Virus record (IMG/VR): IMGVR_UViG_3300020048_000036
Location: 66,639 to 130,638 of that record
Origin: a virus
Strand: one strand, 5' to 3'
Length of the DNA: 64,000 nucleotides
Shown: one piece after another, positions 17,738-52,630 of the stretch
Layout: every line of letters begins with the position of its first letter
How positions within the stretch are numbered: the stretch's first letter is position 1
The notes under the pieces: generated by a model
Told to the model about the DNA's origin: nothing
What the model saw: the letters and a program-made list of their open reading frames with translations, nothing else
The model's database searches: none
Program-made: the position numbers and the translations under genes

Positions 17738-18396
17738 ACGATATATTTCTGAACTTCCTCGTTAAACTTTTCCCAATTCAACTTATCCCAAGCCTGAACC
17801 TTATCAAACCTAGCCTTAAATCTATGTTCATCTGAAATGTCCATATAAACAGCATCACGAAATGTCCAACCTTTTGAAGCAAGTATTGTTGTAGGTATCC
17901 CAAGTAAGTACCCTGCCTTAACACCCGCCTCATCTATACCAGTTTGACCACCACTCCTAATACTTACAATTTTATTCTGTAGGTTTGGATGCAAAATGAT
18001 TTCTCGCAATAAAGCGTAGGTAAAGTAGTCTAGTTGTTGCTGTGAATATTGGTTTCTAAGAGTGGAAATACTATTCCCCGCTATGTTAAGTGTCCTAATG
18101 TTATGTCTGTTAAATGAAGCAACAGTTAAATCTATAAGTCCTTTAGGAACTTCAAGTACCCTACTAATATCTATGTCACAATACAGCTTTTTATTTTTAA
18201 GCACTGACTTTTTGGTAAGAATTTCACCTGCACTTGTGAAATCAGCAGCAATCGCAATAGTACAGTCTGCTTTAGCGTTCTCTACAGTACGTTCCTTGTA
18301 ACCCTTAACGGGTGATTCTAGGAATTGTATAGGGTAATAACCTGCTTCACCAAACATAATTAAATCCTTGTAAACTTTTTGTTGTGGATGTTTCAT
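17734..18396 (-). CDS. SLOG-superfamily (MoCo-carrier-like) protein, circularly permuted
   Basis: Y..RT..N..AD.T, LNIAGN and a C-terminally placed IRSGGQTGIDEAG..AG..LGIP. Confidence 0.75.
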   Translation of the reverse strand: MKHPQQKVYKDLIMFGEAGYYPIQFLESPVKGYKERTVENAKADCTIAIAADFTSAGEILTKKSVLKNKKLYCDIDISRVLEVPKGLIDLTVASFNRHNIRTLNIAGNSISTLRNQYSQQQLDYFTYALLREIILHPNLQNKIVSIRSGGQTGIDEAGVKAGYLLGIPTTILASKGWTFRDAVYMDISDEHRFKARFDKVQAWDKLNWEKFNEEVQKYIV

Positions 18397-19685
18397 TAAC
18401 TAGCCTCCTCCATGTCAACTACTTGTGTATCTTTTATAATACCTTCAAGTACTTTAAATTCAAAAGATTTATATTTATATGTTTCGTTAGTACTATCTAC
18501 ACGGAGACAAATACCTTCTTTAATATGCGATTCATCTATTGTTGATGGCCCTTTTGCTAATTTCTCGCAATGATGAAGTACTAATTCATCAATACAAACT
18601 GGAACATCTTTAGTATAAGCAAAACTATATAATTCAGGAACATGTGTTACCCCAATCTCATCGCATCTCTTTTTCACATCTTCCCAATTATAATCCAATG
18701 TATGTCCATCCTCGTTAGTCATTGTGATACGATACACGTAAACATTGCAGGTGTGATTTGGACAGCCGTAACTAAATACCATATGTTCCCCATACTGTTC
18801 CGTAAAAGCCTTATCTTTAAGTGCCTTGGTATTCACACCTGACATAATAGGCTTACCCATCGGTTCAAAACCTACAATCTCAAAATAAACAGTCTCACCT
18901 TTCCGCAAATTACCCTCGAATTTACTGAAAGCATAGTCACGGATAGTAGTATCATGGAATGGTTTGGAGTCCTTAGATTTGGATTCACCCAATACAACCC
19001 TCCTAGAGCCATTCAGATAGCCCCAATATGTTTTTTGGATAGGTATTCCAAAGAAGGACAAAACCCTCTCAAAACGGCTTAAATTGCGTTCTAGGAGTAC
19101 ATGTCCTACCCGACCTGATGTACCGTGTACCTTTTCAGTGATAATCAGTTTCGTATCTATTGGTATTTTATGTAAATTCTTGCCTAGTTGGTCTGTATCA
19201 AAATGCTCTTTGAACATAATGGATGATTTGGAAGACTTTTTATTAGATTTTCCAAGTGAACCAGCTTGTCTTGTAAGTGGTGTCATGTATTTTTCGCAAA
19301 TAGGAACCCCACTAAACTCGGTAAGACTAATGTGTTCTTCCAATTTATCATAACCTTTTATAAAGGAAAGACTTGAAATAGGAACCCAAAACCCATCACT
19401 TACTTCGCCACGGAACTTCTGTGTACGAACACGCCTATTATCGTCAAACATACCCGTTGGAGCATCTATATTTTTGTTAAGTTCAGCCTTTCGGTAAAGA
19501 TTATTATTTTTCACAAATTCATGTGACAACCTTCCATCAGTAGGAAAATATATCCCCAAATCCCCTTCTTTTGTATCCAATCCCACTACAACTTGGTTTC
19601 CCTGACAGGTAGCAAGTAACACTTTATCTGCATTGCTATGTGGTCTTACGTTTTTAATCCTTAGTATTTCTGCACTATACGACAT
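18396..19685 (-). CDS. RNA ligase, DRB0094/Rnl5-like, with N-terminal OB-fold
   Basis: HSNADKV, R....RG..S.G, motif I TEKVHGTS, YFEIVG, EGI.LR and KYKS..F..LEG. Confidence 0.88.
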   Translation of the reverse strand: MSYSAEILRIKNVRPHSNADKVLLATCQGNQVVVGLDTKEGDLGIYFPTDGRLSHEFVKNNNLYRKAELNKNIDAPTGMFDDNRRVRTQKFRGEVSDGFWVPISSLSFIKGYDKLEEHISLTEFSGVPICEKYMTPLTRQAGSLGKSNKKSSKSSIMFKEHFDTDQLGKNLHKIPIDTKLIITEKVHGTSGRVGHVLLERNLSRFERVLSFFGIPIQKTYWGYLNGSRRVVLGESKSKDSKPFHDTTIRDYAFSKFEGNLRKGETVYFEIVGFEPMGKPIMSGVNTKALKDKAFTEQYGEHMVFSYGCPNHTCNVYVYRITMTNEDGHTLDYNWEDVKKRCDEIGVTHVPELYSFAYTKDVPVCIDELVLHHCEKLAKGPSTIDESHIKEGICLRVDSTNETYKYKSFEFKVLEGIIKDTQVVDMEEAS

Positions 19686-31293: not shown

Positions 31294-31368
31294 GCTACCA
31301 CATTTGGAATCGAACCAAACAACCTCCTTTCAACTACAGAAAAGTGTTCTACCTTGAACTAATGGTAT
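31294..31368 (-). tRNA. Aberrant tRNA-Tyr(GTA)-like gene with an 8-nt anticodon loop
   Basis: TAGTTC-AAGGTA-GAAC D-arm, CTTTT-CTGTAGTT-GAAAG, GG-TTCGATT-CC T-arm, A1:G72 mismatch, short variable loop. Confidence 0.65.
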
Positions 31369-36398: not shown

Positions 36399-36442
36399 GT
36401 TTGTGGTTTTGTATGTTAAAAGTTTTTTTTGCGAAATCTAAG

Positions 36443-36516
36443 TGTTCCCTACAGGACTTGAACCTATGACCCCCGTATTAAAAGTACGGTGCTCTAACCA
36501 TCTGAGCTAAGAGAAC
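36443..36516 (-). tRNA. trnK: tRNA-Lys(TTT)
   Basis: Canonical cloverleaf: GTTCTCT/AGGGAAC, GCTC/GAGC, CCGTA-CTTTTAA-TACGG and TTCAAGT; CCA is not encoded. Confidence 0.95.
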
Positions 36517-49409: not shown

Positions 49410-50056
49410 TTATCTACCCCAACGGGCTTCGTTATCTTTTTGCTCTAAGTAATCAGAGTAAGTATCTTTTTTGCTTGATTGCGTTTCCAGTTCCTTCACC
49501 CTATCCCGTAGGGCTTCAACTTCAACCAATAGCTTTGGTATTGATTCTAATGGGTCTTTAAATGGTTCGCAAGCGTTTACGCAAGCTACTATGCGTTTTA
49601 TGTTTGCCTCAGCGTTAGCTAGCCTCCATCCACTTAATTCAAAGGTTGCAATTCGCCCGTTTTGCAAATCTTCAATATTGTATTCTTGTTTTTTCCACGG
49701 TGTTGGTGTATGCATCACTTGGTTTTTAGTTTCTTAAAAAATACCCGTGGGGTTGTTCGCCCGAACTATCTAACACTCGGTTAAGAAATGTTAAAGCCCC
49801 CACGGGATAAGGTTTATTACCAAGTCAAATGGTAAAACATATCGTTACGGTCAAAAACTTGTTCGCAGCCAATACCGTTATTTTTAAGCCAAAGTTGCTG
49901 TTGCATGGAAAGCAATTTGTAATACGGTAGGAAATTATAGCCAGCCAAGTTTGCATTTTTTATTTGCTTCGTAAGCTCTATTGGTTCAATAGGCGCACCA
50001 CACCCGTTCCCATTTCGTTCTTCTTTTAGTTGTTCAGCTAAAGTTTTCACTTTCAA
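49410..50056 (-). CDS. Two hypothetical proteins (49410-49718 with HTP.PW...NA..IVACVNAC motif; 49817-50056)
   Basis: Intact ORFs separated by a structured intergenic element. Confidence 0.7.
49736..49806 (-). terminator. Branched hairpin or terminator
   Basis: CCCGTGGGG/CCCCACGGG stem with two inner hairpins, then a T-run. Confidence 0.55.
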
Positions 50057-50063
50057 TTAGTTT

Positions 50064-50095
50064 AAAAATTACCCGTGGGCAATACACCCACGGGC
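50064..50095 (-). terminator. Intrinsic terminator
   Basis: CCCGTGGG-TGTATTG-CCCACGGG followed by TAATTTTT. Confidence 0.75.
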
Positions 50096-50234
50096 TTGTT
50101 ATTCCACTAGCCTACCCGTCAGTAAGCATCACACGTCAATTCGTGTTTCCCTAATGCGCATTGTTAAGAGGCGGGGCGAGGTGTTTCTTTGTGTGGCATT
50201 TATAATTTAAAAGTGAGTAATAAAAATTAACCAG

Positions 50235-50365
50235 TACAGCCGACAGGATTTGAACCTGTAATTTTACTGCCCCGTTCGGAACCTTTAGGTATCCTATCCC
50301 TACCAGTATTGGATAGATATTTCGCTATACCTACGAGGTGCGTAAACCAATTTCGCCACGGCTGT
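50235..50365 (-). ncRNA. tRNA-like RNA (Leu-type acceptor/D/T arms) with an expanded anticodon/variable region
   Basis: ACAGCCG/CGGCTGT plus A73, TG-GCG-AAATTGGTTTA-CGC, ACAGG-TTCAAAT-CCTGT; 131 nt in total. Confidence 0.75.
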
Positions 50366-50421
50366 ACTGGCATCCCATCTTACCTATTCCCAAACTTAGC
50401 TTAGGTGTCAACGATAAGACA

Positions 50422-50610
50422 GTATTATTAGGGGCAACCTACATAACTAGCACAAGTTGCATTGTGGCAACCTAGTTACGGACGGTGATGCTCCGCCATT
50501 AGCGACTATCGGCTTGCCCCCGTATTATTGGGCAACCAACCTTTTAGCCCCCTATGGTATCAGATACCAACCTTAGTAGTTATAGCCTGTTGATTGGTTG
50601 CCCGTATCTT
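50422..50610 (-). ncRNA. Two tandem helix-closed structured RNA domains with repeated linkers
   Basis: GGGGCAA/TTGCCCC (50431-50520) and a 12-bp GGGCAACCAATC/GGTTGGTTGCCC helix (50530-50603); GTATTATT linkers at 50422 and 50522. Confidence 0.6.
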
Positions 50611-50617
50611 CAAAGAA

Positions 50618-50866
50618 CTATTCTCCTTTAGTCCAAGTGTCGTGTCCACCTTCGACATTTCTATAACCCATTGCAAGTGCAATAGTGTACCATTGCCCCC
50701 TACCATTATAGCTTTCCATGTGGCTTAATGCGCCCCACAAAATGTCTATTTTCTCTTGTTTTGTTAAATTATTAAAATGGTCAACAATGGTTTGAAATTT
50801 AATGTATTTCGGCTCGATAGTAGTTTTCATAAAGTTGTTTTTAGTTTGGTTAATTGCTTGGTACAA
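50618..50866 (-). CDS. Hypothetical protein
   Basis: ORF directly upstream of the RNA array. Confidence 0.65.
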   Translation of the reverse strand: MYQAINQTKNNFMKTTIEPKYIKFQTIVDHFNNLTKQEKIDILWGALSHMESYNGRGQWYTIALAMGYRNVEGGHDTWTKGE

Positions 50867-51317: not shown

Positions 51318-52630
51318 TTATTTACCCAAACAAATAAGTTCTGTTAAATTTCTCAATACTTTTGCCAAGTGGTTTTTGTTCTCATATACGCCCATAAAAC
51401 CAGTCAAAGGTTCTTGTACTGTAAATAATATTTGGGTAAAATAGCTTTTTGCGAAAAACCTAGATTGGCATGGCTCTAGTATTTCCTTACAGGTTTCCTC
51501 AGTTGTAAGCATAGTACATAACCAAAAATTACCTCTTTTCTTTAGTAGTATATAGGGATGGTTAAAAGCATGGTGCATAAATACGTCACCTACTTTGTAG
51601 GTTAATGGTGTTACTTTTGCAGAGGTAGGGGGTAAATGTCTTAACCATTCTAATAATTGTTTCTTATCTATTGTTTGGAGCTTCTCTACTTTACTTATAA
51701 GTACTGCCTTGTCCATCATAGTGTTTTATTTGTTGTATGTAAATGTAGGTGTTTTTATTAGATTACATTAGCTTTTTCGCAAAAAATCTCGAAATTCCTC
51801 CACAACTTACCGACCCTCTTACATTCTTCCATTGCTGCTACTTTTATAAATCCATCAGTATCGGGGTTCATAAAAATTTTAGATACAGCAGAATATCTTT
51901 TACTAAACAGTTCTAAAATTTCCTCTTGTAGTTCTTTACTTAGTTCCATGTTTGTATTTTTTTGTTACTTAACTGTTACCAAATACTCTCCTACAATAAA
52001 ATTAATCCGCTGCAAATCCTCTAGGAAGATAATGTATTCTGCAATTTTATCCACATCCTTTACAGGAGGTAGTTTTATTTCAATACCTGTTTTGGTCACT
52101 TTCAAAATACCTTTGGAAAACTCATCAAAGTCTTTGTGAAATATAATATCAGAGTATATGATAGAAAATTGAAAGCCAAGTGCTTCAATGTCTTCAATAA
52201 TACCAATTGGTATATTTTTTACCCACTCAGGTAATACGTTTGAGTAATTTTCAATGTAGTCTGTAAATTCCATGTTTTTTTTTGTTTTAGTACAGTGTAA
52301 ATTTAGTCAATTAATTTGGTAATTGCAACTTTCTACTGACAATAATTTTTATTTATTTTCATAGTATTCTTTTGCGAAATCATCCCAAACCAACTCAATC
52401 TCATCAAAGAAATCAACTTCGTTCCAATCAGTATCTTTGTGTTTTTCCATGAAGTTGTCTGTAATTTCCTTTGCAAGCAACCACATTCCACCAGTTCCTT
52501 TGTCGTTGTAGATTTCATACGCAAAACCTTCTTCTTTATGTAGTTGCCATTCAATTCTGCTTACTATCTCGTGGTATGTTTCTAGGTAATCTTCTAAGTT
52601 TTCCATGTTATTTATTTTTGTATAGTACAA
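51318..52630 (-). CDS. Hypothetical proteins (51318-51719, 51758-51949, 51965-52273, 52349-52630)
   Basis: Intact ORFs. Confidence 0.7.

What the first reader, a model, noticed from the sequence alone, without database searches (positions are those of the whole stretch)
50231..50370. tRNA-Leu-like RNA whose anticodon arm is replaced by a large structured insert
Seen: canonical acceptor (ACAGCCG/CGGCTGT, A73), Leu-type D-arm and T-arm, but about 78 nt lie between the D and T arms. In that stretch TAGGTAT can pair with either ATATCTA or ATACCTA, there is a CTATCC/GGATAG hairpin, and no canonical 7-nt anticodon loop exists. Flanks extend the acceptor to a perfect 12-bp helix (CCAGT/ACTGG). Established: bacterial LeuRS relies largely on A73 and the elbow/variable arm rather than the anticodon. 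Inference: this is either an aminoacylatable non-decoding tRNA mimic (amino-acid donor or decoy), or a tRNA with a short intron that is too small to self-splice and would need protein splicing; the phage encodes an RNA ligase.
Basis: partly seen in the sequence, partly recalled or inferred. Interest (0 to 1): 0.75.

Follow-up and report, generated by a model that had tools for sequence, protein, structure and literature searches.

The report
Phage tRNA split by tRNA-shaped insert
A transfer-RNA gene of an uncultured 130-kb water phage is interrupted in its anticodon loop by a 52-base hairpin that is itself shaped like the top half of a tRNA; it is one more example of the barely described, unexplained "enigmatic introns" of phage tRNAs, and whether it is ever spliced out is not known.

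Summary
The structure is real and lies on the minus strand (50365 to 50235). It has a perfect 7-bp acceptor stem, A73, a class-II-type D-arm, a canonical T-arm and a 12-bp leader/trailer helix. That parse is unique and occurs in about 2% of shuffles. ARAGORN's intron call alone means little, since it also fires on 70% of shuffles.

The insert is single-copy and matches no ribozyme, group I or BHB intron. It folds as a tRNA "top half": a 7-bp helix from nt 1, a 5' bulge, a contiguous 7-bp hairpin and a 4-nt tail (1 of 5000 shuffles).

An independent assembly is identical. Close relatives lack the cassette, or hold a roughly 73-nt tRNA in the same socket, or keep only a scar.

The phage has an Rnl5-like RNA ligase but no EndA, RtcB, kinase or CCA-adding enzyme.

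Best reading (0.4): a non-ribozyme intron cut out by tRNA-end nucleases and resealed by the ligase. Rivals are a dead tRNA and an unspliced tRNA-like RNA. No RNA data exist.

Published precedent: Lak megaphage tRNA introns (PMC6784885). This scan has noted similar inserts in many other phages.

The parts
50334..50365 (-). Exon 1 of the tRNA (nt 1-31/32): acceptor 5' strand ACAGCCG, U8, G9, class-II-type D-arm (50340-50356), A26, anticodon-stem 5' strand CCUCG
   Evidence: all helices perfect
50282..50333 (-). 52-nt insert in the anticodon loop (between nt 31/32 or 32/33; one T is ambiguous). It has a 7-bp outer helix UAGGUAU/AUACCUA starting at insert nt 1, a 9-nt 5' bulge, a 7-bp inner hairpin (U)CUAUCC/GGAUAG(G) with an 11-nt loop running straight into the outer helix on the 3' side, and a 4-nt 3' tail AAGG
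   Evidence: topology in 1 of 5000 shuffles; single copy in the genome; helical skeleton absent from IMG/VR and GTDB genomes
50235..50281 (-). Exon 2: anticodon loop UUCCGAA (50275-50281; anticodon CCG at 50277-50279), stem 3' strand CGGGG, 10-nt unpaired variable region CAGUAAAAUU, T-arm (50243-50259), acceptor 3' strand, A73 (50235); no encoded CCA
   Evidence: (the Rfam tRNA model sees only the T-arm, 14.4 bits)
50366..50370 (-). 5' leader CCAGU, which pairs with A73+CUGG (50231-50235) to extend the acceptor to a perfect 12-bp helix
   Evidence: the same leader and trailer are conserved in variant contigs of runs X3 and X5
50219..50234 (-). 3' trailer CUGG followed by the U-rich run UUAAUUUUUAUU
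   Evidence: terminator-like context is inference only
50186..50377 (-). 192-nt tRNA cassette (12-nt leader + tRNA + 48-nt trailer) that is cleanly absent in a near-identical relative; bounded by the 4-nt repeat AAGA (TCTT on the + strand)
   Evidence: run X4, record 7 joins 50185 to 50378; 4 letters fit both sides
50431..50623 (-). Upstream part of the same non-coding block: block-start motif (50604-50623), helix-closed module B (50530-50603, 12-bp closure), linker AAUAAUAC, helix-closed module A (50431-50520, 7-bp closure). The framework is conserved in L016/L017 but the interiors are replaced
50071..50095 (-). Intrinsic terminator (11-bp stem, 7 GC pairs, then AAUUUUU) that closes the non-coding transcription unit
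18396..19685 (-). ATP-dependent RNA ligase gene (429 aa; N-terminal OB domain + nucleotidyltransferase), the only RNA-joining enzyme found in the phage
   Evidence: PF21189 + PF09414; phrog_968, 5.6e-61; TIGR02306, 46 bits against a 151-bit cut-off; no PDB hit

Best explanation
This is a phage tRNA gene (anticodon CCG, so nominally tRNA-Arg, but with a class-II-type D-arm and an odd 10-nt variable region). A 52-nt non-ribozyme insert, shaped like the acceptor/T-arm top half of a tRNA, interrupts its anticodon loop.

Proposed mechanism (inferred, not shown). The gene is transcribed on the minus strand as part of a highly structured non-coding unit that ends at the 50095-50071 terminator. Host tRNA-end-processing nucleases treat the insert as a mini-tRNA. 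RNase P cuts at the 5' foot of its 7-bp helix, which is exactly the exon 1/insert junction CCUCG|UAGG. A 3' endonuclease of the RNase Z/BN type cuts after the 4-nt NCCA-length tail AAGG. Both cuts leave 3'-OH and 5'-phosphate ends. The exons stay held together by the acceptor and anticodon stems. An ATP-dependent RNA ligase, such as the phage's own Rnl5-like enzyme, can then seal them without any end-healing enzymes. The product would be a 79-nt tRNA that reads the rare CGG codon.

It belongs with the 'enigmatic introns' of Lak and other large phages.
For: Anatomy: the acceptor, D and T arms are perfect. Removing exactly 52 nt restores a perfect anticodon arm with U33 and A37. That parse is unique and occurs in about 2% of 20,000 shuffles. 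The spliced 79-mer folds into a cloverleaf.

Insert shape: a 7-bp helix from nt 1, a contiguous inner helix and a 4-nt tail, seen in 1 of 5000 shuffles. The 5' boundary required by the anticodon parse coincides with the foot of that helix.

Not self-splicing: no Rfam family matches, even at E<=10, and 52 nt is far below any group I intron. Not a dispersed repeat or known mobile element.

Not an assembly artefact: the ENA contig L015 is 100% identical over the whole block, and runs X1 and X2 hold it.

Enzymes: an RNA ligase is present. RtcB, EndA and a polynucleotide kinase are absent. That fits a route through 3'-OH/5'-P ends; the end chemistry of RNase P, RNase Z and ATP-dependent ligases is established knowledge.

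Precedent: Devoto et al. [quoted passage not shown]

Weak hint for Arg ancestry: the best, non-significant BLAST hits of exon 2 are phage tRNA-Arg genes.
Against: No RNA data of any kind exist, so transcription, cleavage and ligation are all inferred.

The mimicry is imperfect. The stack is 14 bp, not 12. The apical loop (11 nt, AAUACUGGUAG) has no T-loop motif. The tail is AAGG, not CCA. RNase Z normally cuts directly after the discriminator, which here would leave a 10-nt loop, so the 3' cut is the weakest step.

The insertion site (31/32 or 32/33) is unusual. No insert-free allele of the same tRNA was seen.

The slot is dispensable in relatives: absent in X4, a different body in X3 and X5, a scar in L016. 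CGG is the rarest Arg codon, with 37 codons or 1.0 per 1000.

The precursor's MFE (-37.0) is a rod that unpairs the anticodon stem, and it is slightly more stable than the cloverleaf (-35.7).

ARAGORN -i calls an 'intron tRNA' in 70% of interior shuffles, so that call carries no weight. The topology criterion was framed after seeing the fold. The Rfam tRNA model does not score the locus.
Confidence: 0.4

Rival explanations
1. Disabled tRNA. The 52-nt hairpin is a recent insertion that killed a dispensable phage tRNA in a fast-turnover cassette slot. The RNA, if made, is not spliced and has no function.
For: The slot is clearly dispensable and unstable among near-identical phages. The cassette is cleanly deleted in X4, other bodies of different length occupy it in X3 and X5, and L016/L017 keep only a scar that retains the acceptor 5' strand plus UGGC. 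More distant relatives have no tRNA here at all. CGG is very rare. No bacterial splicing route is known for such inserts. The variable region is abnormal and the tRNA covariance model fails.
Against: Every helix of both exons is intact, including the split anticodon stem, so there is no sign of decay. The insert's geometry is precise and tRNA-like (1 of 5000 shuffles), and its start coincides with the helix foot. No donor copy of the insert exists in the genome or in the collections. Three assemblies are identical, although that also means there is no time depth.
Confidence: 0.27
2. Unspliced functional tRNA-like RNA. The insert stays in, and the tRNA body serves as a stable, RNase P/Z-processed scaffold or decoy. 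Possible roles are a target mimic for host tRNA-directed defence nucleases or synthetases, or a carrier that displays the 46-nt hairpin.
For: The MFE of the precursor is a continuous 4+7+7-bp rod in place of the anticodon arm, closed by ACCU/AGGU. The class-II/Leu-type D-arm plus A73 suits anticodon-independent recognition by LeuRS (established knowledge for E. coli LeuRS, recalled rather than tested). The tRNA is the third unit of an array of helix-closed RNA modules whose frames are conserved while their interiors are swapped. Phage tRNAs are known countermeasures to anticodon nucleases (PMC10264068).
Against: A perfect anticodon arm restored by exact removal of the insert (p about 0.02) is unnecessary for this role. 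The phage has no aminoacyl-tRNA-dependent transferase, Ro/TROVE protein or reverse transcriptase partner. There is no G3-U70 or tmRNA features. The insert is not conserved anywhere else.
Confidence: 0.2
3. Not an RNA gene in function. The 12-bp inverted repeat plus U-run acts as a terminator, or the conserved 'socket' acts as a DNA recombination site, and the tRNA-like interior is incidental cargo.
For: The 12-bp helix is followed directly by UUAAUUUUUAUU. The socket (leader, acceptor stem, trailer) is conserved while the bodies differ.
Against: The canonical T-arm, D-arm with GG, U8, A14 and A73, and a complete cloverleaf are not explained by a terminator or recombination role. A strong terminator already lies 140 nt downstream.
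Confidence: 0.05

Closest known systems
'Enigmatic' tRNA introns of Lak megaphages and a JGI huge phage (Devoto et al. 2019, Nat Microbiol, PMC6784885, Fig. 4 and Table S6)
   Same: A phage tRNA gene with a short (23-141 nt, including one 52-nt) non-group-I insert in the anticodon loop. There is no known splicing mechanism. The locus is polymorphic among close relatives. One published insert 'itself may encode a tRNA'. These points are read.
   Different: The published inserts were placed at 37/38 by tRNAscan's eukaryote mode, and several contain a canonical GGTTCGAATCC T-arm. Here the insert lies on the 5' side of the loop (31/32 or 32/33), is a bare two-helix 'top half' without a T-loop motif, and ends in AAGG. 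The phage is 130 kb, not a megaphage. No insert-free allele of the same tRNA was seen.
Group I self-splicing introns in bacterial and phage tRNA anticodon loops (e.g. cyanobacterial tRNA-Leu(UAA), Azoarcus tRNA-Ile; from established knowledge)
   Same: An interruption of a bacterial-type tRNA inside the anticodon loop. The exon end pairs with intron sequence (ACCU/AGGU).
   Different: 52 nt, against roughly 200 nt or more for the smallest natural group I introns. No P3-P9 core and no Rfam intron hit at E<=10. It cannot be autocatalytic by any known fold.
Archaeal/eukaryal protein-spliced tRNA introns (BHB motif, EndA/TSEN plus RtcB or Trl1)
   Same: A short, structured, protein-dependent intron in the anticodon loop; a ligase is needed.
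   Different: No bulge-helix-bulge can be drawn at either possible pair of splice sites (by inspection). The phage has no EndA or RtcB. The proposed cuts would leave 3'-OH/5'-P ends, not 2',3'-cyclic-P/5'-OH.
Rnl5-type nick-sealing RNA ligases (Deinococcus DraRnl, TIGR02306; Naegleria NgrRnl), as the candidate joining enzyme
   Same: An N-terminal OB domain followed by a nucleotidyltransferase domain. The only NCBIfam hit is TIGR02306; the Pfam hits are PF21189 + PF09414.
   Different: 46 bits against a 151-bit cut-off, and only the N-terminal 190 residues align. No PDB relative is found by sequence. It is therefore not a member by the curated threshold, and its substrate is unknown.
Engineered 'tRNA scaffolds' that carry a foreign hairpin in place of the anticodon loop, and phage T4 stable RNAs C and D (recalled from the literature, not checked here)
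   Same: A tRNA body carrying or accompanying non-decoding structured RNA, processed by tRNA enzymes. Relevant to the unspliced rival.
   Different: There is no evidence here that the unspliced form accumulates or has a target.

Membership tests
tRNA (Rfam RF00005) | 7-bp acceptor stem with discriminator; T-arm with G53 T54 T55 C56 A58 C61; D-arm with G18 G19, U8, A14 | tested here: met
   ACAGCCG/CGGCUGU + A73; ACAGG-UUCAAAU-CCUGU; UG-GCG-AAAUUGGUUUA-CGC
tRNA (Rfam RF00005) | Contiguous 5-bp anticodon stem with a 7-nt loop (U33, R37) | tested here: not met
   Not contiguous in the DNA. It forms only after removing 52 nt (CCUCG-UUCCGAA-CGGGG). That parse is unique and occurs in about 2% of shuffles. 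ARAGORN without introns makes no call.
tRNA (Rfam RF00005) | Covariance-model score at or above the gathering threshold (29 bits) | tested here: not met
   only a local T-arm hit, 14.4 bits.
tRNA (Rfam RF00005) | Variable region of 4-5 nt (class I) or a stem-loop of 11 nt or more (class II) | tested here: not met
   10 unpaired nt, CAGUAAAAUU
Group I intron | Catalytic core (P3-P9, G-binding site), size about 200 nt or more | tested here: not met
   The insert is 52 nt. cmscan of 49900-50700 at E<=10 gives no intron family.
Small self-cleaving ribozymes (hammerhead, twister, pistol, hatchet, HDV-like) | Match to the family covariance model | tested here: not met
   none listed, even at E<=10
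BHB (archaeal-type) tRNA intron | Two 3-nt bulges carrying the splice sites, separated by a 4-bp helix | tested here: not met
   By inspection. For either splice-site pair, the four exon-1 nt before the last two (ACCU or CCUC) have no complement at the required intron position (UAAA or AAAG).
BHB (archaeal-type) tRNA intron | Splicing endonuclease (PF01974) and RtcB (PF01139) available | tested here: not met
   none in the complete phage genome. The host is unknown, so host enzymes are not testable.
'Enigmatic' phage tRNA introns (Devoto 2019) | Short non-ribozyme insert inside the anticodon loop of a phage-encoded tRNA | tested here: met
   phage genome with direct terminal repeats, 100% complete
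'Enigmatic' phage tRNA introns (Devoto 2019) | Presence/absence polymorphism of the insert among close relatives, with identical sequence where present | tested here: inconclusive
   The sequence is identical in L015, X1 and X2. The locus is polymorphic (absent in X4; other bodies in X3 and X5), but an insert-free allele of this same tRNA was not seen, and the variant sequences could not be retrieved.
'Enigmatic' phage tRNA introns (Devoto 2019) | Insert itself tRNA-shaped | tested here: inconclusive
   The helix geometry is met (7 bp + contiguous 7 bp + 4-nt tail; 1 of 5000 shuffles). There is no T-loop motif, no CCA, and the stack is 14 bp rather than 12.
tmRNA / bacterial Y RNA (tRNA mimics) | G3-U70 and a tag reading frame (tmRNA); Ro/TROVE partner gene (Y RNA) | tested here: not met
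   A3-U70 in the sequence. ARAGORN -m finds no tmRNA. The Rfam tmRNA hit covers only the T-arm, 6.4 bits. No TROVE gene.
Rnl5 RNA ligase (TIGR02306) | Score above the equivalog cut-off (151 bits) | tested here: not met
   46.2 bits, residues 9-196 only

The most novel reading that the evidence does not exclude
The insert is never removed. The whole 560-nt block would then be a modular array of 'socketed' small RNAs. Conserved linkers and closing helices (12 bp for module B, 7 bp for module A, and the 12-bp extended acceptor of the tRNA) would serve as processing or recombination sockets, and the interiors would be cargo that related phages swap. In this phage a tRNA body would act as a natural scaffold that stabilises and displays a 46-nt hairpin, or acts as a decoy for host tRNA-targeting defences. 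That would be a natural counterpart of engineered tRNA scaffolds.
Probability: 0.15. Interest if true: 0.75.

Novelty: new member of a known kind. Interest (0 to 1): 0.5.

Why it matters
All bacterial and phage tRNA introns with a known mechanism are self-splicing group I ribozymes. Short inserts that cannot self-splice have been reported in phage tRNAs since 2019, but nobody has shown whether or how they are removed.

This example is small and clean: a 142-nt precursor, sharply defined boundaries, an insert with tRNA-top-half geometry, and a phage-encoded ligase with no end-healing enzymes. It is therefore a convenient substrate for the direct test: RNase P, a 3' endonuclease and an ATP-dependent ligase in vitro.

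If the route holds, it would be a protein-dependent tRNA splicing pathway in bacteria, built entirely from ordinary tRNA-maturation enzymes. If it does not, the locus shows how phage tRNA cassettes are inactivated and exchanged within a conserved RNA 'socket'.

Tried and rejected
- **+ strand tRNA:** rejected, because the T-loop reads on the minus strand.
- **ARAGORN -i as evidence:** rejected, because it calls an intron-tRNA in 70% of interior shuffles.
- **Dispersed repeat, MITE or IS605-type remnant:** no second copy in the genome, and the helical skeleton is absent from IMG/VR and GTDB genomes.
- **Group I intron, small ribozymes, BHB:** no match (inspection).
- **Retron or Y-RNA analogies:** no reverse transcriptase and no TROVE gene.
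- **Amino-acid donor:** no L/F-transferase, FemAB or FemX-like genes.
- **Polynucleotide kinase:** the weak AAA_33 hit is a DnaB helicase.
- **CCA-adding enzyme:** none.
- **Dedicated promoter upstream of the tRNA:** dropped. TAnnTTTG shows no sense-strand enrichment. The leader only partly resembles the phage's repeated CACCT...TTTGG element. The sigma-70 scan found nothing relevant.
- **RNase III excision of the rod:** considered and rejected, because the required cuts do not give a 2-nt 3' overhang.
- **Homologue searches that found nothing:** phages database; IMG/VR patterns; JGI metagenomes; GTDB genomes. denV-anchored loci L001-L014 and L021-L025 have no tRNA or block. The contig of the 76%-identical denV relative (P0003) could not be served.
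- **RNA evidence:** no RNA holder was listed among public runs, and the runs that were laid are DNA contigs only.
- **CGG-recoding test:** conserved genes contain too few CGG codons to decide.
- **Ligase against PDB by sequence:** no hit.

Full report
**What is there.** The finding's coordinates (50231-50370) exactly span a 12-bp helix formed by CCAGU+ACAGCCG and CGGCUGU+ACUGG. The RNA reads on the minus strand. The T-arm ACAGG-UUCAAAU-CCUGU lies at 50259-50243, and every neighbouring ORF is on the minus strand. The element sits in a 560-nt ORF-free gap (50057-50617) between two small genes of a complete 130,638-bp phage genome. That genome is 36% GC, has direct terminal repeats, and comes from aquatic metagenomes. 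It encodes T4-type endonuclease V, an endolysin, PolA, a class II ribonucleotide reductase, a GroEL-like chaperonin and an RNA ligase. The 142-nt unit is much more stable than shuffles (z -3.5, 0 of 200).

I did not take that at face value. When only the 79-nt interior is shuffled, the program still calls some 'intron tRNA' in 70% of cases. I therefore scored a strict criterion: a perfect 5-bp stem anchored at position 27 with at most one G-U, a 7-nt loop with U33 and R37, and a variable region of 4-21 nt. The real sequence has exactly one such parse (CCUCG / UUCCGAA / CGGGG, anticodon CCG), and about 2% of 20,000 shuffles have any. The spliced 79-mer folds as a cloverleaf. So there is a canonical anticodon arm, split by 52 nt (50282-50333) between nt 31/32 or 32/33. 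Oddities remain. The variable region is 10 unpaired nt. The D-arm is of the class-II type although the anticodon is Arg. The Rfam tRNA model sees only the T-arm (14.4 bits).

**The insert.**
- It is single-copy in the genome.
- Its helical skeleton occurs nowhere in IMG/VR or in about 186,000 species genomes.
- Nothing in Rfam matches it, even at E<=10.
- At 52 nt it cannot be a group I intron.
- No bulge-helix-bulge can be drawn at either possible splice-site pair (inspection).
- Its fold has a specific topology: a 7-bp helix that begins at insert nt 1, a 9-nt bulge on the 5' side, a 7-bp inner hairpin whose 3' strand runs without a break into the outer helix, and a 4-nt single-stranded 3' tail.

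That is the geometry of the acceptor/T-arm half of a tRNA with an NCCA-length tail. All of these features together occur in 1 of 5000 shuffles. I framed this criterion after seeing the fold and after reading earlier notes of this scan, so it is supportive rather than independent. The mimicry is imperfect: 14 bp rather than 12, no T-loop motif, and AAGG rather than CCA. The precursor has two nearly isoenergetic states. One is a cloverleaf with the insert stacked on the anticodon stem (-35.7 kcal/mol). The other is a rod in which ACCU (nt 26-29) pairs with AGGU at the insert's end (-37.0).

**Comparative evidence.** An independently assembled ENA contig (L015) is 100% identical over the entire block, so the form is not an assembly artefact. 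DNA contigs of a second study, laid on the region, show near-identical flanks but a polymorphic tRNA.
- Run X4: one contig joins 50185 directly to 50378. The 192-nt cassette is absent, with the 4-nt repeat AAGA at both ends.
- Run X3: one contig keeps the leader, acceptor strands and trailer but has 56 letters in place of 114. That gives a normal ~73-nt tRNA with a different body.
- Run X5: one contig shares the 3' acceptor strand and T-loop, then diverges.

I could not retrieve these sequences. Relatives with 83%-identical endonuclease V (L016, L017) keep the framework of the block nearly invariant: the block-start motif, the closing helices of two upstream hairpin modules, the AAUAAUAC linkers and a 60-nt spacer. 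They have entirely different module interiors. In place of the tRNA they have only a scar that retains CCAGU-GCACCCG-UGGC. More distant relatives have neither the block nor a tRNA. The flanking small ORFs are not even homologous between the two phages. The tRNA is therefore a swappable, dispensable cassette in a conserved RNA 'socket'. No insert-free allele of this particular tRNA was seen.

**Enzymes.** The phage has no splicing endonuclease, RtcB, CCA-adding enzyme, polynucleotide kinase (the weak hit is a DnaB helicase), reverse transcriptase, Ro protein or aminoacyl-tRNA transferase. It does have a 429-aa ATP-dependent RNA ligase with an N-terminal OB domain (PF21189 + PF09414; phrog_968, 5.6e-61). 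Its only NCBIfam hit is the DraRnl/Rnl5 model, far below the cut-off, and it has no PDB relative by sequence.

**Literature.** Devoto et al. 2019 (PMC6784885) reported 'enigmatic introns' of 23-141 nt in the anticodon loops of Lak and another huge phage's tRNAs. They are polymorphic among relatives, one is itself tRNA-like, and no mechanism is known. My searches found no later work that resolves them. Phage tRNAs as a counter-defence against anticodon nucleases are documented (PMC10264068).

**Earlier scan notes.** Earlier AI notes of this scan describe many similar 'tRNA-shaped' inserts in other phages, with the same proposed route. These are unverified leads. One related claim, for a different type of insert, was later priced low. 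Of these leads I tested only the shape criterion and the ligase type on this genome.

**Most likely mechanism (inferred).** Host RNase P cuts at the foot of the insert's outer helix, which coincides with the exon 1 boundary demanded by the anticodon parse. A 3' endonuclease cuts after the 4-nt tail. Both leave 3'-OH/5'-P ends. An ATP-dependent ligase reseals the loop while the acceptor and anticodon stems hold the halves together. This explains why a ligase is present without healing enzymes. The product would read CGG, the rarest Arg codon here (37 codons, 1.0 per 1000). I give this 0.4.

**Weak points.** There is no RNA evidence. The 3' cut has no clear precedent for a non-CCA tail. The slot is evidently dispensable.

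**Rivals.**
- A recently disabled tRNA (0.27). Turnover of the slot and the rarity of CGG favour it. The pristine helices and the precise geometry of the insert disfavour it.
- An unspliced tRNA-like scaffold or decoy (0.2). The rod fold, the anticodon-independent Leu-type features and the surrounding array of helix-closed modules favour it. The restored anticodon arm and the lack of any partner gene disfavour it.
- A purely DNA-level or terminator role (0.05).

**Novelty.** This is another member of a published but unexplained class. It has its own features: the 5' side of the loop, a bare two-helix top half, a cassette in a conserved socket, and a mid-sized phage. Interest is moderate. It would not astonish a specialist who knows the Lak report, but it offers a compact, well-defined substrate for testing a long-open question.

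Noticed in passing
window 50431-50623 (minus); L016:2289-2500; L017:1194-1405: Two helix-closed RNA modules lie upstream of the tRNA: B is 74 nt with a 12-bp closure, and A is 90 nt with a 7-bp closure. They are joined by AAUAAUAC-type linkers. In a phage whose denV is 83% identical, the linkers, closing helices and a 60-nt spacer are nearly invariant, while the module interiors are completely different and the flanking ORFs are not homologous. The whole 566-nt transcript folds with z -3.6. No Rfam family matches.
   Followed up: partly
L016:2520-2620: Where this phage has the tRNA, L016/L017 have a 30-nt hairpin that keeps the leader, a near-identical acceptor 5' strand and UGGC (CCAGU-GCACCCG-UGGC) and ends in CGGGU. 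It looks like the scar of a deleted tRNA. A long terminator-like hairpin follows.
   Followed up: partly
L016:3503-3523; L017:2408-2428: Both Logan contigs end exactly at a second copy of the block-start motif (GAAUAGUUCUUUGAAGAUAC). The relative probably carries at least two such RNA blocks, and the assemblies break at the repeat.
   Followed up: no
window 50148-50176 (minus): A weak match to the Rfam abiF RNA motif (24.6 bits against a gathering score of 37, E 0.064) lies just downstream of the tRNA cassette. This stretch is conserved in the X4 relative, where it is fused directly to the leader because the tRNA cassette is absent. A phage copy of a motif linked to an abortive-infection gene would be worth a look.
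   Followed up: no
window 31294-31367 (minus): A second odd tRNA. ARAGORN calls tRNA-?(Tyr|Leu) with an 8-nt anticodon loop (4-base 'anticodon' GUAG) and a U-U mismatch in the acceptor. The Rfam tRNA model gives 27.1 bits, just under the 29-bit threshold. So two of this phage's three tRNA-like genes have non-canonical anticodon loops; only tRNA-Lys(UUU) at 36442-36516 is normal.
   Followed up: partly
genome G000:C1 14855, 17687, 45122, 35362, 36561 (+) and 10346 (-): A repeated promoter-like element, CACCTnTTTGTTAGGTnTTTGG, precedes several genes; another first-stage note had flagged it. The tRNA leader (window ~50395-50412, minus) has CACCTAAGCTAAGTTTGG: the same ends with a shorter spacer.
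   Followed up: partly
L001:3281-3988; L016:584-1330; L019:3139-3861: Relatives carry a DUF723 (PF05265) gene immediately upstream of denV. This phage has an unrelated 133-aa ORF there instead (51318-51719), another sign of mosaic exchange around this locus.
   Followed up: no
whole genome: AGG is by far the commonest Arg codon in ORFs of 100 aa or more (542 codons, 14.9 per 1000, against 37 for CGG). That is unusual enough that the ORF set or the coding habits deserve a check.
   Followed up: no
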